From assembly GCA_965223385.1 (NCBI GenBank), contig CBDCWR010000006.1, positions 137,896 through 201,895 of the forward strand: a stretch of DNA of 64,000 nucleotides, read 5' to 3'. Source of the DNA: Candidatus Multivoraceae bacterium (GTDB taxonomy: Bacteria > Acidobacteriota > Thermoanaerobaculia > Multivoradales > Multivoraceae). Of this stretch, positions 6,821 to 56,029 are shown piece after piece (the first letter of the stretch is position 1; every line of letters starts with the position of its first letter). The notes beneath the pieces are model-generated. The model was not told the DNA's origin. It was given only the letters and a program-made list of their open reading frames with translations, and did no database searches. Position numbers and translations under genes: made by a program.

Positions 6821-6999
6821 GAGAGTGCCCCCGAGTCTACCGGGTCGCCTCGCACGGGCAGTGCGCGGAGGACCACGTGTCGAGATGGCCCGCGGTCCGG
6901 CAGTGGGTCTGTGCGGGCGCGCTCGACGCGGGGTGCGATGATCTGGCCGAAGGATTTGAGCCGACGGACCCAGGGTGAACTCGAGGAGGTCAGCACTTC

Positions 7000-9038: not shown

Positions 9039-9175
9039 AGTAGACTGCTGCTTTCCAGCCAACAGAATTGCTTCCGCGCTCCGATTCCACGGACCGCACT
9101 TGCGCCCCGCCTTCGGCATGATGCGTGGCGGCGCGCCGGATGGCCGGCCGTGGGGAGCTCGGAGAGGAGACCGTC

Positions 9176-36547: not shown

Positions 36548-36597
36548 AGGGATGCCGTCCGGCTGCTAGGGTCCTCGACCAGACAAGGGGAATGCGA
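36548..36597. repeat. copy 2 of the duplicated leader segment, here preceding the intact BamB-like gene start
   Basis: The sequence is tccggctgctagggtcctcgaccagacaaggggaATGcgaATGaac. Confidence 0.6.
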
Positions 36598-37875
36598 ATG
36601 AACAAAAAGGCCATGGCGCTCGGGCTCGGAATGGCACTGGCCGCCTGCCTCGTGCTCGCGGAATCGAACGACTGGTACCAGTGGGGAGGCCCGGACCGGA
36701 ACTTCCAGGCGTCTCCGGACGGCATCGCCGACGCGTGGCCCGAAGGCGGTCCGAAGGAGCTGTGGAGCAGGACGCTCGGGGACGGTCACTCAGCGATCGC
36801 GGCCGTGGGCGGCAAGCTCTACACGATGTACCGGGCGCGGCCCGAGGGTCTGGCCGAGAACGAGTTCGGCGGCGAAGAGGCGATCATCGCGCTCGACGCC
36901 GCCACCGGCGAGACGCTCTGGGAGCACACGTACGCCTCCGAAGAGATGAACTTCCGCTTCGGCGCCGGGCCTCACTCCACGCCGCTCGTGGTGGGCGGTC
37001 GCGTGTTTGCCGTCGGTACAAACAAGCAGTTCCACGCGCTCGACGCCGACACGGGCGAGGTGCTGTGGGCGTACGACCTGGTCGAGGAGATGGACGCGAC
37101 CCCCGCGCTCGTGCGCTCACAGGTGAAAGCCGGCTACGGGTCGAACCCGATCGCCTACGAAGACACGGTGATTGCGGTCGTTGGAGGCGAAGGTCAGGCC
37201 GTGGTGGCGTTCGACCAGAGCGACGGCAAGGTGGTCTGGAAGACCGGCGACTTCCTCGTCGCCTGCGCCGCGCCGATCCTCATCGACGTCGACGGCCAGA
37301 CGCAGCTGGTCGTGGTCGGCGGCGAAACGGCGTACGGGCTCGACCCGGCGACCGGCGACGTGCTCTGGCAGCACGACCAGCAGGCGCCCGGCGACATGAA
37401 CAACAGCACGCCGGTCTTCGGCGACAACCGCCTCTACATGTCGGTCGCCTACGGCATCGGCGGGCGCGCGCTCGACCTGTCGCGCTCCGCCTCGGGCAGC
37501 GAGGCGAAAGAGGCGTGGTTCAGCAAGGACCTCCAGTTGATGTTCAGCAACGGCCTGCTTCTCGGCGACTTCGTCGTGGGATCGTCGGGCGACTTCGGCC
37601 CGGCGTTCATGGTGGCGCTCGACTGGAAGACCGGCGAGCGGCTCTGGCGCGAGCGCGGCTTCGGTCGTAGCTCGCTCCTCCAGCTCGGCGACAAGACGCT
37701 CATCCTCGACGAAGACGGCACGCTCTCTCTGGCGAAGCTCAGCCGCGAAGGTCTCGAGGTAATCAGCCAGGCCGAGGTGCTGACCGGACGCGCGTGGACC
37801 GTGCCAACCCCCGTGGGCAGCACGATCTACCTGCGCGATCGGCAGGTGATCAAGGCCCTCGACCTGGGCGAGTAG
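36592..37875 (+). CDS. secreted PQQ-repeat beta-propeller protein (BamB-like)
   Basis: Signal peptide MRMNKKAMALGLGMALAACLVLA. Repeated propeller motifs are present (GKLY...DAATGETLW). Confidence 0.75.
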   Translation: MRMNKKAMALGLGMALAACLVLAESNDWYQWGGPDRNFQASPDGIADAWPEGGPKELWSRTLGDGHSAIAAVGGKLYTMYRARPEGLAENEFGGEEAIIALDAATGETLWEHTYASEEMNFRFGAGPHSTPLVVGGRVFAVGTNKQFHALDADTGEVLWAYDLVEEMDATPALVRSQVKAGYGSNPIAYEDTVIAVVGGEGQAVVAFDQSDGKVVWKTGDFLVACAAPILIDVDGQTQLVVVGGETAYGLDPATGDVLWQHDQQAPGDMNNSTPVFGDNRLYMSVAYGIGGRALDLSRSASGSEAKEAWFSKDLQLMFSNGLLLGDFVVGSSGDFGPAFMVALDWKTGERLWRERGFGRSSLLQLGDKTLILDEDGTLSLAKLSREGLEVISQAEVLTGRAWTVPTPVGSTIYLRDRQVIKALDLGE

Positions 37876-40441: not shown

Positions 40442-42307
40442 CTACTTCGCGCGGTAGACGATGAGCGCGTTGCCCGGCATCTGACCGAACAGGCTGTAGC
40501 CGGAGTTGACCAGCAGCAGGTCGTCCACCAGCTGGACGCCGGAGCTGTCGATCGACCCGCCGTGCGCGTCGATTCCGTTCACCGCCTCGAGCTCCCGCTT
40601 CGTCTGGTCCTGCCAGAGCACTTCACCCGTCGCCGCGTCGAAGGCGAACACGCGGCCGTCGAGCGCGCCCGCGAAGACCAGCTCCGAGTTGGACATCGGC
40701 GCCGCGGAGAACGCAAACTGGAAGGGGCACTCGGGCCAGGGGGTCTTGGACGCGCGGAGGGCCGCGACATCGAGCTCGCAGGCCCGCTCGGCCTTGTGCT
40801 CCCACAGCGTTTCGCCGCTCAGGAGATCGAGTGCGTAGAGCCCGGGCTTGGGGTCATAGCCCTGCCTCGGAAAGGCGGGGTCGTTGATCGGCACGAAGAC
40901 GCGGTCGCCCGCGACGGTCAGGCCCCAGTGCACTCCGCCGAGAGCGGAGCCGGCGCCGACCCGGTTCTGCCACAGCACCTCACCCGTGTCGGGATCGAGC
41001 GCGTGCACCTCGCCCGACTTCTGGCCGGCCACCACGATGTCCTTGCCGCTCGAGTGCGTGGCGAGGACCGCGGCTGCACCGAAGTCGAAGTCGGGGCCGT
41101 CTTCTTCCGGGCAGTTGGGGCCCTTGCGTCGGCCACAGGCCATGTTCCAGGCGTCCTCGCGTGTACCCTGGAACGACCAGCGGATCGCCCCGGTGGTCAT
41201 GTCGAGCGCCAGGATCGAGTCGCTGTGCTGCGTGGCGGGTGACGACGTGTTCTCGCCGGTGCCGATGTAGAGCTGGTTGCGTGCGGCGTCGATCGTGGGT
41301 GTGGTCCACACCGGCACCCCCGACGGCCCCCACTGCTGCACGCCCTCGCTCGAGACGTAGGTCGGCACCGCCTCTTTGGTCATGTGCGTGGTCCAGATCA
41401 CTTCGCCCGTGGCGGCGTCGAGCGCGAGCACCGCACCGCGGCTCTTGCAGCACTCGTACTTCGGGTTGGTCGCCAGCACCACGCCGAAGGCCGACACGGG
41501 GACGAAGAGGCGGTCGCCGCGGTCGTCCGAGAACGGGACGGGGGTGCCCGTGGTGGTGTTCGCCGGGTGCTGGGCAACGGACCGGCTCCACAGCGGTTCA
41601 CCGGTGTGCGCGTTGATGGCGTAGACGGTGGCGCCGTTGTCGCCCACGAACAGCGCGGTCTGGTCGCCCGCCTTGCCGAGCGCCATCGAGGTGCGGAGGG
41701 TCGCCTCCGTGTCGTGGTTCCACTTGATGCAGCCACTGTCCCGGTCGAGGGCGTACACCTGACCGGACACGCCGGCGACGAAGACCGTGTCTTCTGTGAC
41801 GACGGGCTGAGATCTCGCCTCCGCGACGTCCGGAATCGCGAAGACCCATGCCGGCTCCAGGCGCCCGGCGTTGGCCTTCGTGATGGTGGAGGTGGGCTGG
41901 TGGCGGGAGTTCGCGAGGTCGATGCCCCAACCGCCGACGCCGACGCCCCCGGTGCTCACTGTCTTGCCCTTGCAGAAGGCCGTCTCCGGCATGGCGTCGT
42001 GCTCCTTGGCGCCACCCGCGCTCAGGTACTCCGAGATCGTCATCATCTGGTCCGACGTGAGCATGGAGGCCTGCTCCTGCATCTTGCCGGACGTCATCGA
42101 GGTCAGGACCTGGTCCATGCTCATCTGCTGGAGCGCGCCGAGAAGGGGGCCCTCCGAGCGGCCCTGGCTGCGGTGGCAGGAGAGGCAGTGTCTGCGAAAG
42201 AGCTGCTCGCCGTCGTCGCCGGAGGCGCCTTCCTGGGCGGGGGCGGAAGCTGCGAACGGTGCTTGGAGGAGCAAGAGCGAGATGACGAGTGAACGGCGAA
42301 GAAGCAT
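40442..42307 (-). CDS. cytochrome c-PQQ dehydrogenase (polyvinyl-alcohol-dehydrogenase-like quinohaemoprotein)
   Basis: A signal peptide is present. N-terminal CLSCH haem c motif. PQQ propeller with vicinal YECCKS. Confidence 0.85.
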   Translation of the reverse strand: MLLRRSLVISLLLLQAPFAASAPAQEGASGDDGEQLFRRHCLSCHRSQGRSEGPLLGALQQMSMDQVLTSMTSGKMQEQASMLTSDQMMTISEYLSAGGAKEHDAMPETAFCKGKTVSTGGVGVGGWGIDLANSRHQPTSTITKANAGRLEPAWVFAIPDVAEARSQPVVTEDTVFVAGVSGQVYALDRDSGCIKWNHDTEATLRTSMALGKAGDQTALFVGDNGATVYAINAHTGEPLWSRSVAQHPANTTTGTPVPFSDDRGDRLFVPVSAFGVVLATNPKYECCKSRGAVLALDAATGEVIWTTHMTKEAVPTYVSSEGVQQWGPSGVPVWTTPTIDAARNQLYIGTGENTSSPATQHSDSILALDMTTGAIRWSFQGTREDAWNMACGRRKGPNCPEEDGPDFDFGAAAVLATHSSGKDIVVAGQKSGEVHALDPDTGEVLWQNRVGAGSALGGVHWGLTVAGDRVFVPINDPAFPRQGYDPKPGLYALDLLSGETLWEHKAERACELDVAALRASKTPWPECPFQFAFSAAPMSNSELVFAGALDGRVFAFDAATGEVLWQDQTKRELEAVNGIDAHGGSIDSSGVQLVDDLLLVNSGYSLFGQMPGNALIVYRAK

Positions 42308-42594
42308 GGCGGTTTCCTGTCTCGGAGAACGATTCCGCACGGGAGAGCTCCGTGCGGGGCGGAAGAGCGAACGTCGAGGCTATCCCGTTTGCGCGCCTGG
42401 ATGGATGGTGACAAGAGGCTGGGTCGTCGTGCGTCCGGTGCGTCGATGGGATCCCGCTGGAAGCGCGCTCGTCGCCAGAGACGCTCGTATACTGCCTGCG
42501 CTCACCCACCACGAGGACCGCGCCGACCAACCGTTGCCGACCCGGTAGCGGAGCGAAGCGGCGCCTTGCCGCCACCGCAGGACCGGAGACCCTC

Positions 42595-44215
42595 ATGCCG
42601 CGAACGAATGTCATCCCTCGACCGATCGTGATGCGTCGTGTGATCGCCCGCGGAGCGGTGGCCGTGGTCGCCCTGGGAGTTGGTGGGTGTCTGCCGTCGG
42701 GCGACGAGCCGCACCCCCAGGCGGCGGCCTGCGAGGCGCTCGGGACCCTGGAGCACGGACTGGCCCAGACCGAGGTGACGCTCGCCGAGCTCGTGCCTGC
42801 CGGTGGCCTGGCGTTCGAGGAGGGAGCGGCGCCCCTCGACCTGCCGGCACTGTGCCGTGTGCAGGGCCGCATCGAGCCCCAGATCCAGTTCGAGGTGTGG
42901 CTCCCCGCGGAGGGGTGGAACGGCCGGTACCAGGGCGTGGGCAACGGCGGGATGGCCGGCACCATCAGCTACCCGGCCATGGCCCGCGCACTCTCCGATG
43001 GCTACGCGACGGCGAGCACGGACACGGGGCACCAGTCCTCGGGTGTGCCCTTCGACGCGACGTGGGCCAACGACCGCCCGGAGCTCATCGACGACTTCGG
43101 ACACCGCTCGCTGCACCTGACGACCGTGGCCGGGAAAGAAGCTCACGGAGCTCTTCTACGGCGAGCCCGCGCATCACGCCTACTACGTCGGCTGCTCCAA
43201 GGGTGGCCAGCAGGGGCTCATGGAGGCGCAACGCTACCCCGACGACTTCGACGGCATCCTCGCCGGCAACCCGGCGAACGACTGGACGCGCTTCTACGCC
43301 GGTGCCCACCTCTGGTACTCGCTGGCGCTGCTGCGCGACGAAGAGAGCTGGATTCCGCCGGCGGGCGTGCAGCTCCTCGGCGATGCGGTGAATGCGGCGT
43401 GCGACGGGCTCGACGGCATCGAAGACGGAGTTCTGTCCGACCCCACTCAGTGCACCTTCGACCCTTCCGCGTTGCTCTGTGAAGGAGGTGCGACGGAGGG
43501 GTGCCTGACCGCAAAACAGGTGCAGGCGGTGAAGGACATCTGGGCCGGCGCGCGCGACAGCGAAGGTAACGTGATCTTCCCGGGTCTGGTTCCGGGGGGC
43601 GAGGCGAGCCCCGGCGGCTGGGCTCTCTGGGTGACCGGCCCGGAGCCCTTCCGCAGCCTCCACTGGCTCGCCGGCGAAGGCTTCTTCCGCCACATGGTCT
43701 TCGGCGACCCCGACTGGGACTTCCGCACCTTCGACTTCGATCGCGACCTGCCGCTCGCCCTCGAGCGCGTCGGGGCACAGCTCGACTCCGCCGATCCGAA
43801 TCTCGCACCGCTGCGCGACCGCGGGAGCAAGCTCCTCGTGTACCACGGCCTCTCCGACGCCGACATCTCGCCGCTCGGCTCCACGGCCTACTACGACCGC
43901 GTCGTCGATCATCTCGCGGACGGTGCACCGGCAGAGGAGGCGCTTGCCAGCACCCAGGACTTCTTCCGTCTCTTCCTGGTTCCGGGCATGGGGCACTGTC
44001 GCGGGGGGCCGGGCTACGACACGTTCGACGCTCTCGGCGCGCTCGAGGCGTGGGTCGAAGAGGGTGTCGCGCCGCAGTCCATCGAGGCGCGGCGCATGGA
44101 CGACCAGGGCAACGTGCTGCGCACGCGCCCCCTGTGCCCCTATCCGCAGAAGGCGGTGTACGACGGTTCGGGGGACCCCGACGCTGCGTCCAGCTTCCGC
44201 TGCGAGGCGCCGTAG
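42595..44215 (+). pseudogene. tannase/feruloyl-esterase-family lipoprotein, +1 frameshift at an AAA run near 43135-43137
   Basis: Family motifs are present (ALCRVQGRIEPQIQFEVWLPAEGWNGRYQGVGNGG). The frame switches between HLTTVAGK and KLTELFYGEPAHHAYYVGCSKGGQQGLMEAQRYPDDFDG. A lipobox (ALGVGGC) is present. Confidence 0.7.
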
Positions 44216-44224: not shown

Positions 44225-45733
44225 CTACCAGCGGGTCCGCAGCCCGAGGCGGAGACGATCGCGCCCGTCGAACTGGCCGAAGAGCCCGAAGGCGTCGCCG
44301 TAGAACGCGTCCCCGGCGACCTCGAGCCGCGTGGAGGGCAGCACCTCCAGCCGCACGCGGAGCTGCACCCAGCCGTCGTCGCGGTCGAGACCGTGCACCC
44401 AGAGAAGGCGGATCTCGTGCTCGCTCGAGTCGCCGAAGATGTGCTGCGCGAGCGCCGTCACGCTCGCCACCTGACGGCCGCGCAGGGACAGGCCGTGGAG
44501 ATCGTGGAGCTGCGTTTCGAAGTACTGCGCACTGAGCAGGGTGTCCCCGAGGCGCCAGTCGAGGCCCAGGACGAACGCAAACTCGTCCGCCGGCTCGAGG
44601 CCGCTCGGGAGGCCCAGATCGAGCACCTGTGCGAGCTTGTCGGGCGTGTAGGCGGCTTCGCCGCGAAGCACCCAGGCGCCAAAGGCGTTGGCGAAGCTGA
44701 GCCCGTAGAGGTCGACACGCTGAAACGTCGGCTCGAAGGCAACCGTCAGCTGCGGGGCCATGGCGGGGGCAGCTGCCGCCTCGAAGCTGCGTCGGAAGAG
44801 GGGCAACGGGTCGAGGTGTCGGAGCCGGTAGAGCGCGAGGTCCCATGCGCCCAGCCGGGTCTTGAGGCGGACGCCGAAGTCGGCGCCGGCAGTGGGTCCG
44901 TCGCCCGCCGTGCGCTCGAACGTGGTGTCGATGCCGAGTGCGGCCAGGTCGTCGAGCGCGATCTGGGTGACGCCCAGGCGCGCGAGGGCCTCGACGAACG
45001 GGTCGTCGGACGCGTTCGCGAGCGCGCTCACGGGCAAGGCGCCGAGTGCCTCCGGTGTGGTGTCGAGCGCGCCGCGAAGGAGAGCCTCCCCGGCCGCTTC
45101 GGGGCGAAAGAGAGGAGATGCCATCTCGAAGGTGGCCCTACCCACGTCGGAGCCCTCGGGGAAGTGGTGCACGGTGGGGTCGGCGATCCAGATCAGCTGC
45201 AGCTCGCTCGTCGATCCGAGCTGCAGGTCGAGGTTTGCCGTCCACAGCGGAATGCGCGACGCCTCGAAGTCTTCGGCCCAGAGCTCACGAAACGACTGCG
45301 GGTTGACGACGTCCAGCACCTTCAGCCCGTCCGCCTCACCCCAGACGGTCTGTTGCTTCCCCAGCGTGAGGAAGGCGCGACGGTAGATGCAGTTGACCGT
45401 GGCCTCCCGCAGCTCCAGCTCGCCGTGATTGCCGAGGAACGCACGTTGCGAGACCGCCGATCGCCAGCTCCGGTCGCGTGGCTGGCCCGGCTCGAGGCGG
45501 TCGGCTTCGTCGGCGCGCAGTCGAACCTCTCCCCGCACCGAGCAGCGACGGGTGGTGTCGGCCTCGAGCGCGAGCAGCGCTTCCAGCTCCAGCTGTTGGG
45601 TGCTGCGGCTCGACGAGGCCGCGCGCACGGCCACCGAGCCCGAGGGCCGGACCTCGACCGCGCGCGCGGCATGGGTCGCCCAGGCGAGGAGCAGGAGGCT
45701 CACCGCGGCGTAGGCGCGGCCGGGCGTGCACAT
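44225..45733 (-). CDS. outer-membrane beta-barrel protein, DUF1302-like
   Basis: Signal peptide. The product is beta-strand-rich and ends ...GLRTRW. It is the last gene of the MT/RND operon. Confidence 0.55.
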   Translation of the reverse strand: MCTPGRAYAAVSLLLLAWATHAARAVEVRPSGSVAVRAASSSRSTQQLELEALLALEADTTRRCSVRGEVRLRADEADRLEPGQPRDRSWRSAVSQRAFLGNHGELELREATVNCIYRRAFLTLGKQQTVWGEADGLKVLDVVNPQSFRELWAEDFEASRIPLWTANLDLQLGSTSELQLIWIADPTVHHFPEGSDVGRATFEMASPLFRPEAAGEALLRGALDTTPEALGALPVSALANASDDPFVEALARLGVTQIALDDLAALGIDTTFERTAGDGPTAGADFGVRLKTRLGAWDLALYRLRHLDPLPLFRRSFEAAAAPAMAPQLTVAFEPTFQRVDLYGLSFANAFGAWVLRGEAAYTPDKLAQVLDLGLPSGLEPADEFAFVLGLDWRLGDTLLSAQYFETQLHDLHGLSLRGRQVASVTALAQHIFGDSSEHEIRLLWVHGLDRDDGWVQLRVRLEVLPSTRLEVAGDAFYGDAFGLFGQFDGRDRLRLGLRTRW

Positions 45734-45737
45734 CCGG

Positions 45738-46598
45738 TCAGCGGGGTGCACCGCGCTGCAGCTGCGCCTGGGAGAAGACCTGATCCGACAGCTCGGTCTG
45801 ATAGTCGGTCGCCCGGAAGTGGAAGGTGGAGCGCGTGCCGCGCGTGTGGTTCTGGGCTTCGATCAGGAGCGCCGTCCAGACCCCCTGGATCTGCTCGAGC
45901 TTCCGGCTGTGCACGGTGCGCAGCACCTCGCCCGCGGCGTCGCGGTACTCGATGCGACGCGGATAGTCGCTCGCCTGATCCACCCAGACGCGCGCTGCGG
46001 CGTGTCCGAGCTGGCGGGCAACGTCGGCGTTCTTGACGCGGCCCTCGACCACGTAGCACGCGTTGCCGTCGACCTCCTCATCGTCCAACCGGGACCACTC
46101 CGACTCGCTCACCTCGAACTTGCCATCCTTCTTCACATCCTCGTAGGTGAGATCGGTCGCCATGAACCAGTCGCCCCGCTCCGATGCCGAGATGCGGCGA
46201 ACCCGCTTGAGAGACGGCAGGTAGAGCCACTGGTCGTCCTCCTTCCCCCCATCCGTGTAGTCGACCGTGAGGAAGCCGGTGCCGCGGACGTTTGCCGGCG
46301 ACTCGTAGAACAGAGCCGTGCGCCTCCGATCGGCACCCTCGCGGCGGAAGATGCGCGCATGGCGGGAGCGCTCTTTGCCGCGCCGGTCCCGCATGACGAT
46401 CTCGACCTCCTGACTCTTGAACGTTCCCCCGTCGCGGGCCTCCATGCGCTGCGCGATCCCGAGGCCGTCGGCCGGATCTGCAGCCGACCCGGCAGCTGCG
46501 CCGAGCCAGGGGACCAGCACGAGCGCGGCTACGGAGCCCAGGGAGAGACGTTGGCGGAGCTCGGCGGACTGGGATGGGAGGCTCTGTCGCGATCGCAT
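45738..46598 (-). CDS. LolA-like outer-membrane lipoprotein-sorting family protein
   Basis: Signal peptide. The sequence WLYLPSLKRVRRISASERGDWFMATDLTYEDV is typical of the family found next to RND/MMPL exporters. Confidence 0.6.
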   Translation of the reverse strand: MRSRQSLPSQSAELRQRLSLGSVAALVLVPWLGAAAGSAADPADGLGIAQRMEARDGGTFKSQEVEIVMRDRRGKERSRHARIFRREGADRRRTALFYESPANVRGTGFLTVDYTDGGKEDDQWLYLPSLKRVRRISASERGDWFMATDLTYEDVKKDGKFEVSESEWSRLDDEEVDGNACYVVEGRVKNADVARQLGHAAARVWVDQASDYPRRIEYRDAAGEVLRTVHSRKLEQIQGVWTALLIEAQNHTRGTRSTFHFRATDYQTELSDQVFSQAQLQRGAPR

Positions 46599-46618
46599 CG
46601 GTGGTACCTCGGGTTGGT

Positions 46619-48905
46619 TCAGGAGAGGGCCTGATTGGCCAGGGCGGGGGAGGCGGTCTCGTTCGCCCGGGAGGGGGTCGGCTCACCAGCCCCGGCGAGG
46701 CAGAGGAGAGACGGCAGGAGAAGCACGTCGGCGGCGAAGGCGACGAGCAGGCTCAGTGTGGTGGCGAGACCAAAGTGCACGAGGGGGAGGAACCCGCTGA
46801 AGCCGAGAGCCAGGAACCCGGTTCCCAGGCTCGCGGTGGTGACGAGCAGCGCGCGCCCGACGCGATGGAAGACCTCCTCGAGGGAGCGGCCGGGCGCGAG
46901 GTGACCGAGCACGTGTGCGGTGTCGTCGACAGCCAGCCCGAGGGCCACGCAGCCGACGATGGCCGTGGCGAACGAGAGCGGCACGCCGAGCCAGCCCAGA
47001 ATGCCGAGGCAGACCAGGATGGGCAGGGTGTTCGGGATCATCGCCAAGGCGGCGAGTCGGGCCGAGCGCAGCACCAACAGCATGGCGACGAAGATCGCAG
47101 CCACTGCGACCAGGAGTCCGCGGACCATGCCGTGCGCGATGGCGTCCATGGCTTTGGGAAAGAGCAGCCAGGTGCCGAGGACCTCGGTGTCGACACCCGC
47201 GGGAGGGGTGACGTCGAGCAAGCGGTCGCGCAGAGCCAGGATCTCGCTCGACGAGCGACTGTTGACACGCAGGACGAGGTTGAGGGCGCTCCGGTCGAAG
47301 TCGATGTAGTGGCGAAGGTCGTCCGGGTCGCCGGCGTTCTCGTAGAGGACCATGTACTGCATCGCGAGGGCCTCGTCGGAGAAGTAGGAGCGCTCTCTCT
47401 CCGGATCGAGGACATCGTCCATCAGTGCGAAGTAGTCGAGCAGCGAGAGGCTGCGCGTGACGATGGGCGAGGTCTCCGCGCTCCGAAGCCACTGGCGCGC
47501 GAAGCGCATCACGTGCGGCTGCGAGCGCGCCGTCGGGCATGCCGGTGGAGATCACCGCGTGGAGGAAAAGGCTGCCGCCGAGGTTCTCCTGGAGGAAACG
47601 GTCGCTCTGACGGTGGTAGTGATCCGGCTTCCAGAAGGTGAGCGGGTCCGACTCGATCTCGAGCCGCGCCATTCCCGCAGCGGCCAACGCCACGAGCGGA
47701 GCTGCGATGGCGAGCGTGCGCCAGGGGTGGCGCGCCCACGAGATGCCGCGGACCGTGAGCCCTCCGAGGCCGGCGAAAGGGAGCGTGTCGATGCGCAGCT
47801 CGAAGCGCTGCACGAGGGCCGGAAGGAGCAGGAGACTGGCGCAGAGGCATCCAAGAATGCCGACGGCCAGACTCAATCCGAGACTACGGATCGACGGCAC
47901 CGGCATGACCAGGAGCGCCAGGAAGCCGGCACCGGTGGAGAAGGCCGAGAGCATGCAGGATCTCGCGCACAGGCGCAGGAGGCCCACCCCCGGCGCTTCG
48001 TCCTCGGGAACGGCGGCCAGCAGCTGGATCATGTACAGCGCGTACGTGGAAGAGGTCGCGAGCAGCACGGTCGGCATCGTCGACAGCACGACGTTGAGTG
48101 GTGTGCCCGAGAGGCCGAGCCAGGCGATTGCGACGAGCTCGGTCCACGCGATGACGACCACCAGCAGCCCGAGCGCCCAGACCTTGCGGACGAAGAGCCA
48201 GAGGAGTGCGAGCACCAGGACAACGGCGATCGTGGTGAGAACGATCAGGTCGCGAAGTACGATGGTCGTCGATTCGTGCTCGGCGGCGGGATAGCCCGCG
48301 ACCCACACCGGGACATTCGCGCCGGAGGCGAGGTCGTACACGCGCTGGACCAGGCTCTCGTTGAGCTTGGCCTGCGACGGGAACGGCGTCCCCTCTCCCG
48401 CGATCCGCGGCACGATGACCGTGGCGACGGCACCGAGGTCGGCAGAGACGAGGCTCCCCTCGTAGAGTCGATGGCCGCGGATGCGCGCGCGCAACGCTTC
48501 GATGTCTGCGTTCTCGACGCCGTCGGAGACCAGAGGCGACGCGTCGACGAACGTCGGGTCCGTGGCGCGCGCGCGCACGTCCTCCACGTTCGTCAGGTCG
48601 ATCACCTCGTCGACCTCCGGCAGGCTCTCGATCTCGAGGCGAAAGCGCTCGAGCATCTGGAGGGTGCCGTGGTCCAGCTTGTCGTCGCCCAGGTCGTAGC
48701 CCACGACCAGGATCTCGTCGTTCGAGAAGTCGAGCCGCACCTCCTCGTTGCGCGCGAGCTCGGGGTCGCTGTCGAGGAGCAGCTCGTCCAGTCCAGGCGC
48801 AACCTCCACGCGCACGGCAAGACCGGCGAGGAGCACGCCTGCCAGAGCGAACCCACAGAGGATGGCGGTCGAGCGGTGCTCCACCCAACCTTCGAGGAGC
48901 CTCAT
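46619..48905 (-). CDS. RND-superfamily (MMPL/HpnN-like) exporter, reading frame broken near 47500
   Basis: The N-terminal half lies in ORF 46683..48905 (TM plus periplasmic domain, becoming Arg-rich junk after ...ALRAPVASERGD). The C-terminal half lies in ORF 46619..47512 (MMRFARQWL... six TM helices). Confidence 0.7.
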
Positions 48906-48911
48906 GGCGCG

Positions 48912-49868
48912 TCAGTCGCAGTCGATGCAGAGGAAGAGATTGACGCCCAGCGGCTCCTGCAGCACGCGCACCTGGCCCTCTCCGAATCCGCACTGTCTGG
49001 CGAGGCTTCGGAGCTGCTCCTCGCTCCGGTGGATCAGGTGCCACTCTCCGAAGCGCATGTAGCTGAGGCTCGGGTTGTTGATCGAGAAGTTGCCCACCAC
49101 GATCTGCCCGCCTGGGGCGGCCAGTCCGCCCATGCGCTCGAGCAGGCGGCAGAAGTAGCTGTCACTCAGGTAGTCGAAGAGCCCGGCGGACCAGATCCAG
49201 TCGAACCTCTCCTTCGTCCGGTAGCGAAAGACGTTCTTCTGGACGAACGTGATGCGATCGAGATACGGCGCGCAGAGCTGCTTCGCGAACTCGATTGCGT
49301 TCGTGTCCTGGTCGACGCAGGTGAGCTCCACGTTGGCGTCCGGGTCCTCCTGGAAGAGCTCGGAGACGTCGCGGCACGGCCCGCTCGCGAGGTCGAGCAC
49401 CCGAAGAGGCTCCGGACCGGAGTGTCGCTCGAGGCGCTCCCGAAGGGCGCCCTTGAAGAAGTCCTTCCGGTTGCGCACGGCGGTTGGCGCAGACGACTGG
49501 TGGAAGTAGGCGTCCCACCGGACCAGCTCGGGCACCCGCGTGGTGCGCTGCTGGTAGATCCAGTCGATGATCTCGAAGTCGCCGGCGTAGCCGCGCAGTT
49601 TCAGGTAGGCCCGGCCCTGGCTGGTCTCCGGGGTCCAGGCACGAGGCATGGCGTGGCGGATCGTGTTGATCGACGCATCGTCGAGGAGGCCGGCGTCGTA
49701 GCGGACGAAGAGACCGTCGAGCCACTCCTCGAAGGCGGAGTAGTCGTCCGGCATGGGGCCGCCGCTCGCGTAGAGCTCCGACGCGAACGCGACGTCGGCG
49801 GCAATGTCCGAGCCGCGCAGGTGTGCTTCTTGGGGTCGAGGTTGTTCGAACGTGATTCCCGCTTCCAT
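48912..49868 (-). CDS. class I SAM-dependent methyltransferase
   Basis: VLDLASGPCRD is the motif I GxGxG-like SAM-binding site. The stop lies 7 nt before the RND start. Confidence 0.75.
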   Translation of the reverse strand: MEAGITFEQPRPQEAHLRGSDIAADVAFASELYASGGPMPDDYSAFEEWLDGLFVRYDAGLLDDASINTIRHAMPRAWTPETSQGRAYLKLRGYAGDFEIIDWIYQQRTTRVPELVRWDAYFHQSSAPTAVRNRKDFFKGALRERLERHSGPEPLRVLDLASGPCRDVSELFQEDPDANVELTCVDQDTNAIEFAKQLCAPYLDRITFVQKNVFRYRTKERFDWIWSAGLFDYLSDSYFCRLLERMGGLAAPGGQIVVGNFSINNPSLSYMRFGEWHLIHRSEEQLRSLARQCGFGEGQVRVLQEPLGVNLFLCIDCD

Positions 49869-50224
49869 CACCAGCTCCGATGTACTTCGTTGACGTCCAT
49901 GACGGCTCGCGGAGGCGCGGTCGAGGTGCAAGGCTCGATCAACAGATCGTCATTGCCTACGCCGCGGTATCCGAGATTTCCGCCGCATCGCCCGGTGGGA
50001 CGGACCTGTCGAGGTCTTTTTCGTTCACGAAGCGCGGAAGGAGGTTCTGAGGTCCGGACTCGAACCTCGGGCTGCCCAGTTTCTGGGCGGATCGCGCCCT
50101 CCGAGGGGCGCGCGGGGAGATCTATGCATGAACAGCTATTAGAATGGGGGATGCGCGGTCACGGGTCCGCCGCGCTGGGAGGTGTCCGACGGACTCGAGG
50201 CTCGAAATGACCTGGGAGGCCAAC

Positions 50225-51598: not shown

Positions 51599-53263
51599 CT
51601 AGAGGCAGGTTGCCAGCGAGTTGGTGTCGGTGACGGCATTCGCCGGCTGGCCGAGCGGGTTGGAGTAGCGCTTTCGCGAGCCGGTGACCGAGTCCGTCAC
51701 CGTCACGTCGAATGCGACGTTCGTGGTCGCGGCAAAGAACGTCCAGTACCTGTCGTTGAGCCCGCAGCCGTCGAGCACCTTCACGAGCATCTCGAAGTTG
51801 TCGTTGGTGAAGAACCAGAAGAGGCCCGAGTCGGTGATGCCTGGGACCTCCACTGCAGATCCGGGCCCCGTGGTCGCCGAGAAGTCCTCCCAGTTCACCT
51901 CGACCTGGAAGCGCCCCTCGTTCAGGCACAACGCCTGCGCGGTGGGCGTACAGGTGAACGGCGCGACCGGTTCGAGCTCTTCGCCGCTGCCTCCGACTCC
52001 GTCGTCCCCTCCGCTCCCGCCTTCGCCCTCGGCGACGATGAAACGACCGTCGAGCACGATCGCATCGATCCCAAGGCCGACCGCGTCCGTCACCGTGACG
52101 CCGAGGCGTCCGTCCCACTGCACTCCCCCCAGGTCCTGTTCGTCGAGCACCAGCCGACCGAGCTCGGTCGAGCCCCGCATCAGTGCGACCGAGGCGCGGA
52201 CCACACGCTCATGCGGGAAGTCGAGAGGGTCCTCCGACTGCAGCGCGCCAAGCGACACCGCGCCGCTCGTCAGCGGGTTGCCGAAGCTGGTGAAGCCGAC
52301 CGGAAACAGGTCGCTGCCGTCGCGGCTGAAGAGCCGGATCCGGAGGTCGAGGGTTCGGCCGTCCGACTGGAGCGTTGCGCTCTCGCGGACCCGCGGGACG
52401 GTCCCGACGTTGTTGTAGCGCGGCAGGTTCTCGGCTCGGTCGTCGAAGGTCACCACGCTGCTGCCGGGCACCTGGATGTCGAAAAGCACTCCACTCGGTA
52501 GCCCGAGGAGTGGTTTGATGGAGTACGTGCTCCCCTCGGGGCCGACCGCAGCGCTGTATTGCCCGCGCCGCGGTCCAGGCGGCTCGGGAGCGTCCAGCGC
52601 CATGCCCACGAGCTGCGCCGTGAAGGGCAGTCCGCCACTCGGATCCTGAATCGGAATGTCGGCGAGGACGAGCGGCTGGTGGGGTTGCACGGTGCGCGAC
52701 ATGCCGCCGTCGGCGTACTCCAGGGTCGCAGCGCGCCGCGCGCGATGGGCGGCGACCAGACCGTCCACGGCGCTCTGCGCCTCCGCAGCAACTCGGGAAT
52801 CGAGATCCCAGGCAAGCGGCTGCTGACGCGTCAGCCGCAAGACGTCCGGTCGCAGGCCGGAGCAGGTCGCGAAGGCATCGGTGTCCGTGACCGCGTTGGC
52901 GGCCTGGCCGAGAGCGTTGAAGTAGCTCCGTCTGGTTCCGGTCTCCGTGTCGGTGACCCGCATCGTGAGCTCCACGTTCGTCGTCGCGGCCATGAACACC
53001 CAGAACCGGTCGTTCAGGCCGCAGCCGTCGAGCACCTTCACGAGCAGCTCGAGGTTGCTCTGGTCGAAGAAGTAGAACAGCCCCGAGGTCTCCGACAGGG
53101 GTACGGTCATGCCGGCGCCGGTGTTGGACTGAAAGTCCCTCCAGGTGATCTCGATCTGGAAGCGATCGTCGTCGCCGAGGCAGAGCACGGTGTCGGACGC
53201 GATGCAGTCCGACGGCCCCGTGCTCGTGGAGTAACCGAGGTCTTCCAGGAGCGCGGTCGTCAC
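51599..53263 (-). CDS. large protein with two copies of an unrecognised ~115-aa four-Cys domain flanking a ~300-aa central region; no N-terminal signal peptide
   Basis: Repeat 1 is CIASDTVLCLGDDDRFQIEITWRDF...LLVKVLDGCGLNDRFWVFMAATTNV...ANAVTDTDAFATC. Repeat 2 is CTPTAQALCLNEGRFQVEVNWEDF...MLVKVLDGCGLNDRYWTFFAATTNV...ANAVTDTNSLATC. The two copies are ~65% identical. The GTG start overlaps the protease stop (GTGA). Confidence 0.7.
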   Translation of the reverse strand: MTTALLEDLGYSTSTGPSDCIASDTVLCLGDDDRFQIEITWRDFQSNTGAGMTVPLSETSGLFYFFDQSNLELLVKVLDGCGLNDRFWVFMAATTNVELTMRVTDTETGTRRSYFNALGQAANAVTDTDAFATCSGLRPDVLRLTRQQPLAWDLDSRVAAEAQSAVDGLVAAHRARRAATLEYADGGMSRTVQPHQPLVLADIPIQDPSGGLPFTAQLVGMALDAPEPPGPRRGQYSAAVGPEGSTYSIKPLLGLPSGVLFDIQVPGSSVVTFDDRAENLPRYNNVGTVPRVRESATLQSDGRTLDLRIRLFSRDGSDLFPVGFTSFGNPLTSGAVSLGALQSEDPLDFPHERVVRASVALMRGSTELGRLVLDEQDLGGVQWDGRLGVTVTDAVGLGIDAIVLDGRFIVAEGEGGSGGDDGVGGSGEELEPVAPFTCTPTAQALCLNEGRFQVEVNWEDFSATTGPGSAVEVPGITDSGLFWFFTNDNFEMLVKVLDGCGLNDRYWTFFAATTNVAFDVTVTDSVTGSRKRYSNPLGQPANAVTDTNSLATCL

Positions 53264-54177
53264 GATGTCTGCGGCCCCGCGACGTTGAAGGGCTCCATGA
53301 TCTCGTCCGGAAAGAGCGCGATGTCCCAGTGGGACACGGAGCTCCCGAGCTCGAGCGGATCGGGAGAGTACATGCGGACTTCGCCCGAAGGCTCCACCCC
53401 GTCGATCAGCGCCCCGGCCGCCTGGCGGCTACTGGGGCCTTCCCAGACGAGTCGTCCGCTCGCGGCGGACGCTGCACGCTGCGCGTCGCTCAGGTCGCTC
53501 CAGAGCTCTCCGGAGATGCCGTCCTTGAGATGAATGGAGAACGCGTCGTCGAAGCCGACCAGCTTCTGCCCGGTGCTGAGATCGACGAAGCTCACGAAGC
53601 CGAGGCCATGCGCGACCTCGTGGAGCACGGTGGTGAAGAAGTCGGGTCGGCCGGTGGGTGGCGGGGTGTCGATTCCGTACCACCACCCGAAGCCGCCGAG
53701 GCAGCCCGGTGCGCCTTCGATGGCGCCGTTGAAACGTGCGAAGACGTCGGCGCTCGTCGGATCGAGGTCGCTGCCGGAAAGGGCGTTGGCGAGCGCGACC
53801 GGATACCACGTCTGGGATCGCGGCGCGGCAGCGAAGTCTCGGAACGCGTCGATCGGGCTCGCCTGCCCGAGCAGCGCCGACGTGTCGTCGCAGAAGAGAT
53901 CCGGCATCTCCGCTTCGACCTCGATCTCGACGTCGCTGGCGAGGATCTCGCCCCAACGGTCGAGTGCAGCCTGGAAGGCGTTGACGCGCTGCTGGCCGAG
54001 GGTGGTCCCCGGGTTGCCGGGCGCGGGGCCGACGGGCGTCGGGTCGTTGAAACCGACGCCGGGGCCGTCGAGAACCGTCAGTCGGAAGTTCGTGGCCGTC
54101 GCGGGCGTCGCGACGAGGAGTGCCAACAGGACGCTGCTGACGAAGTGATGTGTACCCAGCAGCGGTCGCCGAGCCAT
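53260..54177 (-). CDS. secreted zinc metalloprotease (HEXXH)
   Basis: Signal peptide MARRPLLGTHHFVSSVLLALLVATPATA. The HEXXH motif is TTVLHEVAHGLGF. A downstream SVSHWD is present. A ggag RBS is present. Confidence 0.7.
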   Translation of the reverse strand: MARRPLLGTHHFVSSVLLALLVATPATATNFRLTVLDGPGVGFNDPTPVGPAPGNPGTTLGQQRVNAFQAALDRWGEILASDVEIEVEAEMPDLFCDDTSALLGQASPIDAFRDFAAAPRSQTWYPVALANALSGSDLDPTSADVFARFNGAIEGAPGCLGGFGWWYGIDTPPPTGRPDFFTTVLHEVAHGLGFVSFVDLSTGQKLVGFDDAFSIHLKDGISGELWSDLSDAQRAASAASGRLVWEGPSSRQAAGALIDGVEPSGEVRMYSPDPLELGSSVSHWDIALFPDEIMEPFNVAGPQTS

Positions 54178-54617
54178 CAGCGATTCTCCGTCGTGCCCTG
54201 GCCGGCCCCCTCTGCAGCCGGGTCGGCAGTCAGCGCGGCTGCCGAAGCGGGCACCAGCGTTCCGTCTGGATGAAGGCGCACCACGTTCGCGCTCATGAAG
54301 CGCCCGCGGACGCGCGTCTTGATGCCGTCCGGCATCTGCACCTCGACGGGCGGGGGCGTGGGTGCCGTGCTCCGGCCCGAGCGCGCGGACGCTCCCGGTG
54401 GCGGCACGGTGAGCTCCCCGGTGACCGGATTGCGATACGCACGCGACGCCGCCTGGCTGGCGTCGAGCGGCTCTGTCTGCGCCTCGCCTGCGGGCTCCGG
54501 TCGCGTGGGCGACGGCGTCGCGATCCACGCCGCGGCGAGCACCAGGAGAACGGCGCCGACGCTGAGCCCCCAGAGCGTGGCCCTCTTTGCCCGACGACCG
54601 GTCCTTCGTCCCCTCAT
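54177..54617 (-). CDS. hypothetical membrane-anchored Pro-rich protein
   Basis: MRGRRTGRRAKRATLWGLSVGAVLLVLAAAWI is the anchor. The stop overlaps the protease start (TGATG). Confidence 0.45.
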   Translation of the reverse strand: MRGRRTGRRAKRATLWGLSVGAVLLVLAAAWIATPSPTRPEPAGEAQTEPLDASQAASRAYRNPVTGELTVPPPGASARSGRSTAPTPPPVEVQMPDGIKTRVRGRFMSANVVRLHPDGTLVPASAAALTADPAAEGAGQGTTENR

Positions 54618-54727: not shown

Positions 54728-56029
54728 TCAGAGAGGTGGTGCGCCCACCTCGCCCCCGGCACGCCAGCGAATGAGCGGCAGGTGTGCTCTGCCGAGGAAG
54801 AACTCGCCGCCGAAGAGGTAGCCCGGAGTGCTCACGACACCCTCCTCGTCGTGCTTGCACAGGACCTCCTCGGCCGGTCGCCTCCAGGCCTCCGGGTCGA
54901 AAGCTCCCGCATCACATCCTGCAGCTTCCAGGAGAGCGCGGACGGCGTCGAGATCGAGGCCGGCTCCGACTGCTGCGACACGTTCCAGAGCGAGCTCGAG
55001 AAAGCTCTCGACCCGAGCGACGTCGTAGCCGATGACGAAGAGCCAAGTGCGGTGCAGAAGCTCCGTGTCGACCTGTTGGGGAGGCAACGGCACGCGCAAG
55101 GCCTCCGCTGCCAGCTCGAGCTGACGCGCCTCCTGCGCGCGGCGGAAGGCGAAGTGGCGCTGTGTCCGCTCTCCGCCCTCGGGAGCGAGCGCCGGACGCG
55201 CCACGTGCGGCCACCACGTGACGTCGAGGCCAGACCCGCGCAGGGCACGGCGGGTCGCATGGAAGGCGAGGTGCGACTCGGGCTGGCCGAGGTCGAGGAC
55301 AACGCGCAGAGCCGGGGCGTCGCGTACCTCGGCCGGTTTGTCCTCCGAGTGGAGCTGCCGGTACGCGATGGCGGGTGCGGAGCCTCTCCCTCCTTCGAGA
55401 TGCCAGAGCACCCGCGGCAGGTGCTCGCGTCCGAAGAAGATCTCCTCATCTACCACGAACGTGGGCACGCCGAAGATGCCGGCATCGAAGATCGCGCGCT
55501 GCATCTCGTCATGCTCGTGGCGCCCCTCTCCGTGCAGGAAGTCCGCGAAGCCCGCTGTTTCGGCTCCTGCTGCCGTGAGCACCGCCTCCACCACCTCTTG
55601 GCTCTCGGCGTCGAGCTCGCGCTTCCAGAAGGGCTCGTACGCGGCGCGGATGTAGCGCCGGAGCACGTCGTGGCCCTGTCTCTTGGCCCACATGAAGCCG
55701 ATGTGCACGAGGCTCGTGTCCCAGATCTTGACGGTGCCTCGCAGCGTGAGACCTCGGAGGGAGGCATAGCGACGACAGTCGAAGTAGGCGTACTTCACGG
55801 CGCGCCACTGCTCGGGGCTGCGGTTCTGTTCCGCGACCTTGCCGCCGGCATCGAGCTTCGCCGAGCCGAGATAGCTCGGAATGTCGAGCGTCAGCGGCCG
55901 CCAGTCGAACTGGGTGCCCAAGCGGTCCTCGAGGTCCATCGCCGGGAAGGTCGCAAGGTAGGCGTAGGGGCTCTTGATGTCGAGGTAGACGATGACCGGG
56001 GCGTCGCTGCGCAGCGGATCGAAGGTCAC
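54728..56029 (-). CDS. tandem DsbA-like / 2-hydroxychromene-2-carboxylate-isomerase-family protein
   Basis: Two thioredoxin-like HCCA-isomerase-type domains are present (VIVYLDIKSPYAYL...; LVHIGFMWAKRQGH). There is no CxxC. Confidence 0.7.
   Translation of the reverse strand: MTFDPLRSDAPVIVYLDIKSPYAYLATFPAMDLEDRLGTQFDWRPLTLDIPSYLGSAKLDAGGKVAEQNRSPEQWRAVKYAYFDCRRYASLRGLTLRGTVKIWDTSLVHIGFMWAKRQGHDVLRRYIRAAYEPFWKRELDAESQEVVEAVLTAAGAETAGFADFLHGEGRHEHDEMQRAIFDAGIFGVPTFVVDEEIFFGREHLPRVLWHLEGGRGSAPAIAYRQLHSEDKPAEVRDAPALRVVLDLGQPESHLAFHATRRALRGSGLDVTWWPHVARPALAPEGGERTQRHFAFRRAQEARQLELAAEALRVPLPPQQVDTELLHRTWLFVIGYDVARVESFLELALERVAAVGAGLDLDAVRALLEAAGCDAGAFDPEAWRRPAEEVLCKHDEEGVVSTPGYLFGGEFFLGRAHLPLIRWRAGGEVGAPPL

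What the first reader, a model, noticed from the sequence alone, without database searches (positions are those of the whole stretch)
51599..54617. Secreted HEXXH metalloprotease operon encoding a 554-aa protein made of two copies of an unfamiliar four-cysteine ~115-aa domain
Three coupled minus-strand genes are present: a Pro-rich membrane-anchored protein (stop overlaps the next start, TGATG), a signal-peptide Zn metalloprotease (HEVAHGLGF...SHWD), and a large repeat protein (GTGA overlap). The repeat protein has two ~65%-identical modules (C-x7-C ... RFQ[IV]E[IV]xW.DF ... LVKVLDGCGLNDR.W.F.AATTNV ... ANAVTDT...ATC) at its N- and C-termini. I cannot place this module in any domain family I know. 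The conserved Cys pattern implies disulfides and an extracytoplasmic location, yet the protein has no signal peptide of its own. Either it is exported with or by its partners, it is a substrate or pro-domain-like partner of the protease, or the protease and repeat ORFs are really one polypeptide broken by an indel at the overlap.
Basis: partly seen in the sequence, partly recalled or inferred. Interest (0 to 1): 0.75.

Follow-up and report, generated by a model that had tools for sequence, protein, structure and literature searches.

The report
Frameshift-split secreted protease with undescribed paired domain
The "protease" and the "554-aa repeat protein" are one 859-residue secreted zinc protease gene cut in two by a missing base (probably an assembly error), but its two four-cysteine modules do belong to a large, unannotated, almost always paired domain family carried by thousands of secreted Acidobacteriota proteins.

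Summary
The ORFs, the HEVAHGLGF/SHWD motifs, the TGATG and GTGA overlaps and the internal repeat are all present. The repeat is 56% identical over 120 aa (E 2e-46), not about 65%.

The three-gene reading is wrong. Five relatives of 813-873 aa cover 96-100% of the joined protease plus repeat protein. The first 11 residues of the 554-aa ORF (TTALLEDLGY) are the last helix of the leishmanolysin-like catalytic domain. One missing base at 53267-53278 splits the gene. Two other genes in the window are broken the same way, so an assembly indel is the likeliest cause. This explains the missing signal peptide.

The locus is therefore a conserved two-gene cassette: a small signal-anchored Pro-rich protein plus an 859-aa protease.

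I infer, without proof, that it is an autonomous extracellular binding or anchoring handle.

The parts
54177..54617 (-). Small partner gene (146 aa). It has an Arg-rich N-terminus, one hydrophobic segment (signal anchor or signal peptide), a Pro-rich linker and a C-terminal domain of about 70 aa. Its stop overlaps the protease ATG (TGATG).
   Evidence: The NF047450 'post-PEP-CTERM-1' match scores 26.7 bits against a cut-off of 28. Homologues in the same position upstream of related proteases score 42.1 and 44.2 bits. The gene is conserved upstream in all five related loci examined.
51599..54177 (-). One protease gene. It gives 859 aa plus stop once a single base is restored. In the window as given it reads as two ORFs (53260-54177 and 51599-53263).
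   Evidence: The repaired translation has 859 residues and one terminal stop. P0002, P0003, P0004, P0006 and P0008 cover 96-100% of it.
54094..54177 (-). Sec-type signal peptide (MARRPLLGTHHFVSSVLLALLVATPATA, then TNFRL...).
   Evidence: Read from the sequence. The protease domain starts at residue 20-50 in nearly all of the 73 relatives.
53231..54093 (-). Leishmanolysin-like zinc metalloprotease catalytic domain. HEVAHGLGF is at 53596-53622, the third His in SHWD at 53323-53334, and the Met-turn IMEP at 53290-53301. The final helix TTALLEDLGY (53231-53260) lies in the other frame.
   Evidence: The profile of 24 protease domains hits leishmanolysin 1LML at both the HExxHxLGF motif and the SH..ELMxP....LT..L.DLG[FWY] segment, E 7e-4. 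NF038122 metallo_LGF scores 34.6 bits, below its cut-off of 80.
53267..53278 (-). Frameshift interval with one base missing. Restoring a G in the GGGG run (53275-53278) gives NVAGAADIVTT. Restoring a base before AC-ATC gives NVAGPQDIVTT. Both match the relatives in length.
   Evidence: P0002 DNA reads GTA CCG CAG GCC GCC GAT CTC GTC ACG in one frame.
52859..53218 (-). Module copy 1, a four-Cys beta-sandwich of about 120 aa.
   Evidence: hmmsearch score 178.6, E 1.3e-56.
51962..52858 (-). Family-specific insert of about 300 aa between the two modules. It has a low-confidence stretch with one long helix, then an all-beta domain of about 170 aa. Its function is unassigned.
51602..51961 (-). Module copy 2. 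It ends one residue after the last Cys, at the C-terminus of the protein (..LATCL, then stop at 51599-51601).
   Evidence: hmmsearch score 171.0, E 2.9e-54. The AF2 model of this copy has pLDDT 97.8 and pTM 0.91.

Best explanation
The locus is a two-gene cassette, not three genes.

Gene 1 (54617-54177) encodes a small signal-anchored, Pro-rich protein of the NF047450-like family. It is translationally coupled to gene 2.

Gene 2 (54177-51599) encodes one 859-residue exported zinc metalloprotease with these parts:
- a Sec signal peptide;
- a leishmanolysin-like catalytic domain (HEVAH, a third His in SHWD, a Met-turn in IMEP);
- module 1;
- an insert of about 300 aa;
- module 2 at the extreme C-terminus.

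In the window this gene is interrupted by a one-base deletion at 53267-53278. The deletion creates the apparent 'protease' and 'signal-peptide-less repeat protein'. It is most likely an assembly or sequencing indel, because two unrelated genes in the same 64 kb are broken the same way.

The module is a disulfide-stapled beta-sandwich of about 120 aa, with Cys1-Cys2 and Cys3-Cys4 pairs. It belongs to a very large, unannotated family that is used as a pair.

Inferred and not shown: the pair is an autonomous extracellular binding or anchoring handle. It would tether or target the protease, and hundreds of other exoproteins of Thermoanaerobaculia/Holophagae, to a common ligand such as a cell-surface or matrix glycan or a receptor protein. 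The small upstream protein would be a cognate partner of the protease domain (inhibitor, chaperone or membrane tether).

The confidence value refers to the single-gene, frameshift and domain-family parts. The binding-handle role alone I put at about 0.4.
For: Single gene:
- P0002 (859 aa), P0003 (873), P0004 (849), P0006 (813) and P0008 (818) cover 96-100% of the joined query at 39-56% identity.
- They read straight through SHWD..LMEPF..AAD.VT..LL.DLGY..C.
- The window's second frame reads GAADIVTTALLEDLGY, and adding one base gives an 859-aa ORF.
- Leishmanolysin 1LML aligns to the same ELMxP....LT..L.DLGF segment. The first residues of the 554-aa ORF are therefore part of the catalytic domain.

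Indel-prone assembly:
- A tannase gene is broken at about 43130-43145. When repaired it gives a single PF07519 match over positions 9-489 of 490, 410.8 bits.
- An MMPL transporter is broken at about 47510-47550.
- The orthologue P0007, encoded on a 6.78-Mb contig in NCBI/ENA, is also frameshifted inside its second module.

Module family:
- 10,566 clusters at 50% identity reach E<=1e-3, and 5,993 reach E<=1e-30.
- There is no consistent Pfam or NCBIfam hit for any of 53 members.

Pair behaviour:
- In 129 top-scoring representatives, 125 proteins have 2 copies and 4 have 4.
- 110 pairs lie at the extreme C-terminus, 12 directly after a signal peptide and 7 are internal. The median linker is 30 aa.
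- Copy 1 is most similar to another protein's copy 1 in 138 of 184 cases, so the pair moves as a unit.
- Cys presence and absence co-vary.
- Partner domains are very diverse: PA, Calx-beta, FN3, PKD, subtilase, trypsin, reprolysin-like, ricin lectin, FG-GAP, VWA and hydrolases.
- Hosts are all Acidobacteriota MAGs, with several loci per MAG.

Cassette: a small NF047450-like gene sits immediately upstream of the related protease in all five other loci examined (five distinct proteases). This holds even where the C-terminal domains are BNR, FG-GAP or PA.
Against: - No reads are available, so a genuine mutation (pseudogene) cannot be separated from an assembly error.
- The exact base that is missing is ambiguous within 12 nt.
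- The function of the module is inferred only from architecture. No ligand, no conserved neighbouring gene and no informative structural neighbour were found.
- The top-150 list is ranked by summed score, which favours two-copy proteins. A few single-copy proteins exist (P0011, P0083, P0088).
- The protease domain scores below the curated cut-offs of NF038122 and has no Pfam M8 hit.
- The role of the small protein is a guess by analogy.
Confidence: 0.8

Rival explanations
1. The frameshift is real in the organism. The protease gene is a recent pseudogene, giving a truncated protease that lacks its last helix and all accessory domains, rather than a sequencing or assembly artefact.
For: The deposited sequence carries the shift, and the 554-aa ORF is present as such in NCBI/ENA. 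One of the two possible repair sites is not a long homopolymer.
Against: Three unrelated, otherwise intact genes are broken by single-base shifts within 64 kb. Both halves keep the coding GC3 signal and every invariant residue of the family. The two shifts that could be localised sit in short G or A runs. An orthologue on another multi-megabase contig shows a similar break.
Confidence: 0.2
2. This is a true three-gene operon. The 554-aa protein is translated on its own from the GTG at 53263 and acts as a separate partner or substrate of a 305-aa protease.
For: A GTG start overlaps the protease stop (GTGA), an arrangement typical of translational coupling.
Against: No relative is organised this way. 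All full-length homologues are single chains. The 305-aa product would lack the helix after the Met-turn that is part of the leishmanolysin catalytic domain. The 554-aa product would be a disulfide-dependent protein without an export signal. The downstream frame is open and homologous for several codons upstream of the GTG.
Confidence: 0.03
3. A programmed -1 ribosomal frameshift or transcriptional slippage at the G run joins the two ORFs in vivo.
For: The shift needed is -1, and a GGGG run lies in the interval.
Against: There is no X XXY YYZ slippery heptamer, and the run is only four bases long. The homologues encode the region in one frame with unrelated codons. Other genes in the window show similar shifts.
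Confidence: 0.02
4. The paired module is a secretion or sorting signal recognised by a dedicated export or attachment machinery and removed afterwards, like the T9SS C-terminal domain. It would not be a binding handle.
For: 110 of 129 pairs end at the extreme C-terminus, and 88 of these end exactly one residue after the last Cys. The module is attached to a very diverse cargo set within one phylum and occurs in several genes per genome. This is the pattern seen for known sorting domains.
Against: 12 of 129 pairs sit directly after the signal peptide and 7 are internal. In the window's own family, and in P0048, the two copies are separated by hundreds of residues. A C-terminal signal should not tolerate this. 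No Por_Secre_tail or other sorting-domain model matches. No conserved neighbouring machinery gene was found.
Confidence: 0.2
5. The module is a substrate-targeting carbohydrate-binding module (CBM-like) that brings enzymes to an insoluble polymer, rather than an anchor to the producer's own surface.
Against: All structural scores are in the range of generic beta-sandwich resemblance. There is no CBM family hit. Partners are dominated by proteases, lectins and adhesin-type repeats rather than glycoside hydrolases. The near-obligate pairing is unusual for CBMs.
Confidence: 0.2

Closest known systems
Leishmanolysin (GP63, MEROPS M8; PDB 1LML) and the NCBIfam NF038122 'metallo_LGF' metalloproteases
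   Same: Both share the HExxHxLGF zinc motif. A third His lies far downstream (SHWD here), followed by a Met-turn (E[IL]MEP) and a helix ending in DLG[FWY]. The protein is secreted through an N-terminal signal peptide.
   Different: Sequence similarity is marginal: E 7e-4 to 1LML with a 24-sequence profile, and NF038122 at 34.6 bits against a cut-off of 80. There is no Pfam PF01457 hit. The C-terminal architecture (module, insert, module) is unrelated to that of leishmanolysin.
T9SS C-terminal sorting domain (Por_Secre_tail) and other C-terminal sorting tags
   Same: It is a common beta-sandwich add-on at the very C-terminus of many unrelated exoproteins in one phylum.
   Different: It is used as a tandem pair. 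It can also sit at the mature N-terminus or be split by inserts. There is no sequence or fold match to the sorting-domain models.
Modular anchoring or targeting domains used at either end of exoproteins (SLH domains, dockerins, CBMs, PPC pre-peptidase C-terminal domains)
   Same: It is an autonomous, position-independent extracellular module, in repeated copies, with a short linker and very diverse catalytic partners. This comparison rests on general knowledge of those families.
   Different: There is no homology to any of them by sequence or structure. The four-Cys pattern and the fold are its own. No ligand is known.
Small inhibitor or partner proteins encoded next to secreted metalloproteases (for example the serralysin inhibitor Inh/AprI)
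   Same: A small exported protein is encoded immediately next to a secreted zinc protease and is translationally coupled to it. The arrangement is conserved across Acidobacteriota and Anaeromyxobacter.
   Different: This is an analogy from memory only. No sequence relation was tested or found. The only family match is NF047450 'post-PEP-CTERM-1', which has no known function.

Membership tests
Leishmanolysin-like metzincin (M8) / NF038122 metallo_LGF | HExxHxxGF zinc-binding motif | tested here: met
   HEVAHGLGF lies at 53596-53622. H, E, H, G and G are invariant in the 24 aligned relatives.
Leishmanolysin-like metzincin (M8) / NF038122 metallo_LGF | Third His ligand well downstream, followed by a Met-turn and a C-terminal helix | tested here: met
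   gssvSHwd..dELMEP....lt..l.DLGw aligns to 1LML residues 229-268. The His and Met are invariant.
Leishmanolysin-like metzincin (M8) / NF038122 metallo_LGF | Score above the curated family threshold | tested here: not met
   NF038122 scores 34.6 bits against a cut-off of 80. Relatives score 22-46 bits. There is no Pfam hit at E<=1. I file it as 'works like, distant relative', not as a member.
Leishmanolysin-like metzincin (M8) / NF038122 metallo_LGF | Zinc-dependent proteolytic activity | not testable with these tools
   This needs an enzyme assay.
NF047450 post-PEP-CTERM-1 domain (small upstream protein) | Score at or above the curated cut-off of 28 bits | tested here: inconclusive
   The window protein scores 26.7 bits. 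Positional homologues score 42.1 (L003) and 44.2 (L086), and 20-26 bits in three others. All align over the same domain of about 70 aa.
Any described protein domain family (Pfam-A 2025, NCBIfam r20), including CBMs and sorting domains, for the 120-aa module | Significant or consistent profile match | tested here: not met
   The window copies match no family. Among 53 diverse members no family is hit by more than 4, and all such hits have E>=0.008.
C-terminal sorting signal (T9SS-CTD type) | Obligatory position at the extreme C-terminus | tested here: not met
   19 of 129 representatives carry the pair at the mature N-terminus or internally. The window's family splits the pair by about 300 aa.
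Programmed ribosomal frameshift site | Slippery heptamer and conservation of the two-frame arrangement in relatives | tested here: not met
   There is no X XXY YYZ heptamer. The relatives are in a single frame.

The most novel reading that the evidence does not exclude
The disulfide-stapled module pair is the recognition handle of an undescribed protein-sorting or surface-display system of Thermoanaerobaculia/Holophagae (Acidobacteriota). It would be functionally comparable to dockerin-cohesin, SLH or the T9SS C-terminal domain. It would mark a whole exoproteome (proteases, lectins, adhesin-like repeats) for attachment to one common receptor or polymer. The module would also have a beta-sandwich topology with no solved relative.
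Probability: 0.3. Interest if true: 0.7.

Novelty: new variant of a known kind. Interest (0 to 1): 0.42.

Why it matters
For genome annotation, the case is a warning. A puzzling disulfide-rich protein with no signal peptide can be the tail of a frameshift-split gene, and this window carries at least three such breaks.

For biology, the module is a very large domain family (over 10,000 clusters at 50% identity) that is missing from Pfam, NCBIfam and the PDB. It is confidently foldable and is used as a pair on a wide range of secreted enzymes in a poorly cultured phylum. Defining it as a family would annotate thousands of 'hypothetical' regions. Finding its ligand would show how these Acidobacteriota organise their extracellular enzymes.

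The conserved cassette of a small NF047450-like protein plus a leishmanolysin-like protease also gives a testable partner for a family of unknown function.

Tried and rejected
- A look-up of the exact 554-aa protein on contigs returned nothing, and its cluster carries no name or accession. The closest relatives are Acidobacteriota MAGs.
- A homologue search with the 298-aa insert alone returned no hit, not even the protein itself, so the word pre-filter probably failed.
- The AlphaFold-DB fold libraries were unavailable.
- Literature searches for 'post-PEP-CTERM', for Thermoanaerobaculia plus C-terminal domain, and for leishmanolysin plus PEP-CTERM found no paper.
- I clustered all ORFs in 80 module-bearing loci. 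Only generic expanded families recurred (histidine kinases, FtsX-type permeases, Ser/Thr kinases), plus an antisense artefact. No dedicated neighbour gene emerged.
- The promoter and terminator scan gave nothing above background.
- The search with a variant that lacks Cys3 and Cys4 returned mostly truncated ORF fragments of the same tandem-pair architecture, all 'hypothetical protein'.
- The adjacent DSBA-like gene (54728-56029) could have been a functional partner for disulfide formation. I rejected this because it is not conserved next to the homologues.
Full report
**What is in the sequence**

On the minus strand there are three consecutive ORFs.
- The first is a 146-aa ORF (54617-54177). 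It has an Arg-rich N-terminus, one hydrophobic segment and a Pro-rich linker.
- The second is a 305-aa ORF (54177-53260). It starts MARRPLLGTHHFVSSVLLALLVATPATA and contains HEVAHGLGF (53596-53622), SHWD (53323-53334) and IMEP (53290-53301).
- The third is a 554-aa GTG ORF (53263-51599).

The window is about 68% G+C throughout.

The N- and C-terminal parts of the 554-aa ORF are 56% identical over 120 residues (E 2e-46). This is a real duplication, although less similar than the 65% stated. A profile of the module finds exactly these two copies in the 64 kb (52859-53218 and 51605-51961).

**The 'repeat protein' is the tail of the protease**

I joined the protease and the repeat ORF conceptually and searched 5.8 billion proteins.
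- The exact 554-aa ORF came back as P0001.
- Five single-chain proteins also came back: P0002 (859 aa), P0003 (873), P0004 (849), P0006 (813) and P0008 (818). They cover 96-100% of the joined query at 39-56% identity.

In the alignment these proteins run without interruption through ...SVSHWD..L.P.ELMEPF.V.GAAD.VT..LL.DLGY....C... into the first module.

In the window the protease frame reads MEPFNVAGPQTS-stop. The other frame reads GAADIVTTALLEDLGY. Adding one base gives an 859-aa ORF with a single terminal stop and a junction of NVAGAADIVTT. P0002 has AVPQAADLVTS at this point, encoded in one frame with unrelated codons. The added base can go either in the GGGG run at 53275-53278 or just before AC-ATC at about 53268.

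A profile of 24 protease domains (A4) hits leishmanolysin 1LML (E 7e-4). The hit covers both HExxHxLGF and the segment SH..(D)ELMxP....LT..L.DLGF. That segment holds the third zinc ligand, the Met-turn and the following helix of the catalytic domain. The first 11 residues of the '554-aa protein' therefore belong structurally to the protease. This removes the puzzle of a four-cysteine protein with no signal peptide: the signal peptide is at residue 1 of the 859-aa chain.

**Error or mutation?**

I cannot see reads, but the window itself is informative.
- A tannase/feruloyl-esterase gene changes frame at about 43130-43145, in a GGGAAAG context. When repaired it gives one continuous PF07519 match (profile positions 9-489 of 490, 410.8 bits).
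- An MMPL/RND transporter changes frame at about 47510-47550.

That makes three otherwise intact genes broken by single-base shifts in 64 kb.
- Both halves of the protease gene keep the coding GC3 signal and every family-invariant residue.
- The orthologue P0007, encoded on a 6.78-Mb contig in NCBI/ENA, is likewise frameshifted inside its second module.

I therefore favour an assembly or sequencing indel (about 0.75) over a real pseudogene (about 0.2). A programmed frameshift is unlikely. There is no slippery heptamer, the run is only four bases, and the relatives are in one frame.

**The real gene organisation**

The small upstream gene is conserved. A 136-167-aa ORF sits immediately upstream of the homologous protease, overlapping it or within 44 nt.
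- This holds in two distinct loci that carry module-bearing orthologues: L001/L002 (the same protein, P0004, on two records) and L003.
- It also holds in three loci whose proteases carry other C-terminal domains: L084 (BNR), L085 (FG-GAP) and L086 (Anaeromyxobacter, with a PA insert).

All six small proteins match NCBIfam NF047450 'post-PEP-CTERM-1' over the same region of about 70 aa. Two score above the 28-bit cut-off (42.1 and 44.2), the window protein scores 26.7, and the others score 20-26.

The conserved unit is therefore [small exported NF047450-like protein] followed by [leishmanolysin-like protease], whatever accessory domains the protease carries. I infer a protease-specific partner such as an inhibitor, chaperone or tether. 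This is by analogy only.

The protease domain is a distant relative of NF038122 'metallo_LGF' (34.6 bits against a cut-off of 80) and has no Pfam hit. It is always N-terminal, directly after the signal peptide, in 73 relatives.

**The module**

It is not in Pfam-A (2025) or NCBIfam r20. The window copies hit nothing, and across 53 diverse members no family is hit consistently.

AlphaFold2 with a 53-sequence alignment gives an all-beta model with pLDDT 97.8 and pTM 0.91.
- The best Foldseek E is 0.16, with TM at most 0.33.

This is a generic beta-sandwich resemblance only.

An exhaustive profile search of 1.84 billion cluster representatives finds 10,566 proteins at E<=1e-3 and 5,993 at E<=1e-30.

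In GTDB species representatives one peptide pattern alone gives at least 583 confirmed stretches. The best 80 are all Acidobacteriota MAGs (Thermoanaerobaculia, Holophagae/Holophagales), with up to six loci per MAG among those 80.

Every source name seen for a module-bearing protein is either 'hypothetical' or refers to its other domains.

**Architecture of the family**

Among 129 top representatives, 125 proteins have two copies and 4 have four.
- 110 pairs end at the very C-terminus, and 88 of these end one residue after the last Cys.
- 12 pairs follow a signal peptide directly, and 7 are internal.
- The median linker is 30 aa.

This list is ranked by summed score, which favours two-copy proteins. 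A few single-copy proteins exist.

Copy 1 is most similar to another protein's copy 1 in 138 of 184 cases, and copy 2 to another copy 2 in 116 of 184. The pair therefore spreads as a unit.

The cysteines co-vary. Cys1/Cys2 are both present in 416 of 419 modules. Cys3/Cys4 are both present in 283 and both absent in 99, and Cys4 never occurs alone. This supports two disulfides, one of which staples the C-terminal end. It also defines a two-Cys variant ending in ..DT.AF.

Partner domains are very diverse: PA, Calx-beta, FN3, PKD, subtilase, trypsin-like, reprolysin-like, matrixin, ricin lectin, FG-GAP, VWA, alpha/beta hydrolase, beta-propellers and beta-helices.

The window's family is unusual in carrying about 300 aa between the two copies. 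P0048 has a similar split. In the low-confidence model that insert has a poorly predicted stretch with one long helix, followed by a beta domain of about 170 aa. It has no assignable relatives.

**How it most likely works**

Shown: the product is a Sec-exported, disulfide-containing, multi-domain zinc metalloprotease precursor.

Inferred, at about 0.4: the module pair is an autonomous extracellular binding or anchoring handle. The reasons are that it works at either end of the mature chain, tolerates large inserts between the copies, travels as a unit and decorates a whole set of unrelated exoproteins in one lineage.

Alternatives:
- A C-terminal sorting or secretion signal (about 0.2). The strong C-terminal bias favours this. 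The N-terminal and split cases argue against it.
- A substrate-targeting CBM (about 0.2). Only weak fold resemblance supports this.

No conserved neighbouring gene points to a dedicated machinery.

**Comparison and novelty**

- The protease is a distant, sub-threshold relative of the leishmanolysin/metallo_LGF kind. It works like one, but family membership by curated score is not met.
- The gene split is an artefact or a trivial lesion.
- The module is a real, abundant and so far undescribed domain family with a distinctive obligate-pair usage. It is a new variant within the known kind of accessory extracellular modules on secreted enzymes.

The interest is moderate. The original paradox dissolves, but the domain family deserves a definition and a search for its ligand.

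Noticed in passing
window 42595-44215 (+), shift at about 43130-43145: A tannase/feruloyl-esterase gene is split by a one-base frameshift in a GGGAAAG context. The conceptually repaired 539-aa protein gives one continuous PF07519 match (positions 9-489 of 490, 410.8 bits).
   Followed up: yes
window 46619-48905 (-), shift at about 47510-47550: An MMPL/RND-type transporter is split into a 5' part and a 297-aa 3' part in different frames. The 5' part is the first ~455 codons of a 740-aa ORF whose tail is Arg/Pro-rich out-of-frame text. A LolA-like/DUF1329 gene (45738-46682) and a DUF1302 gene (44225-45862) lie downstream on the same strand.
   Followed up: partly
window 6979-7326 (+): A 116-aa ORF looks like an internal fragment of a zinc-type alcohol dehydrogenase or quinone oxidoreductase (...GGEAAGVISKVGADV...). 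It is followed by an unrelated ORF, so it may be another broken gene.
   Followed up: no
P0007, the orthologue on a 6.78-Mb contig in NCBI/ENA: The orthologous protease in this assembly is itself frameshifted inside its second module (the sequence turns into unrelated text after ..DIPGIGD) and lacks its N-terminus. The family therefore seems prone to such assembly breaks.
   Followed up: partly
P0116, P0250-P0369: A two-cysteine variant of the module exists (VKVLDGR..NG.FWVFYGALSNVEYTLTVTDTQTG...DT.AF-end). It lacks Cys3 and Cys4 together. It also occurs as tandem C-terminal pairs and also in Thermoanaerobaculia. Many database entries are truncated ORF fragments.
   Followed up: partly
window 54728-56029 (-): A 433-aa protein with a DSBA-like thioredoxin domain (PF01323) and no signal peptide lies 111 nt upstream of the small gene on the same strand. 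It is not conserved next to the homologous cassettes.
   Followed up: partly
window 9122-11245 (+), 36481-37875 (+) and 40442-42379 (-): By eye, three ORFs look like PQQ-dependent dehydrogenase or beta-propeller proteins. The one at 40442-42379 has an N-terminal CxxCH haem motif. They were not tested with any tool.
   Followed up: no
window 47457-50210 (+): A 917-aa ORF runs antisense to the MMPL and methyltransferase genes. It is Arg/Glu-rich text typical of spurious antisense ORFs in high-GC DNA. Similar antisense ORFs over the module region formed the largest 'cluster' in the neighbourhood analysis.
   Followed up: partly
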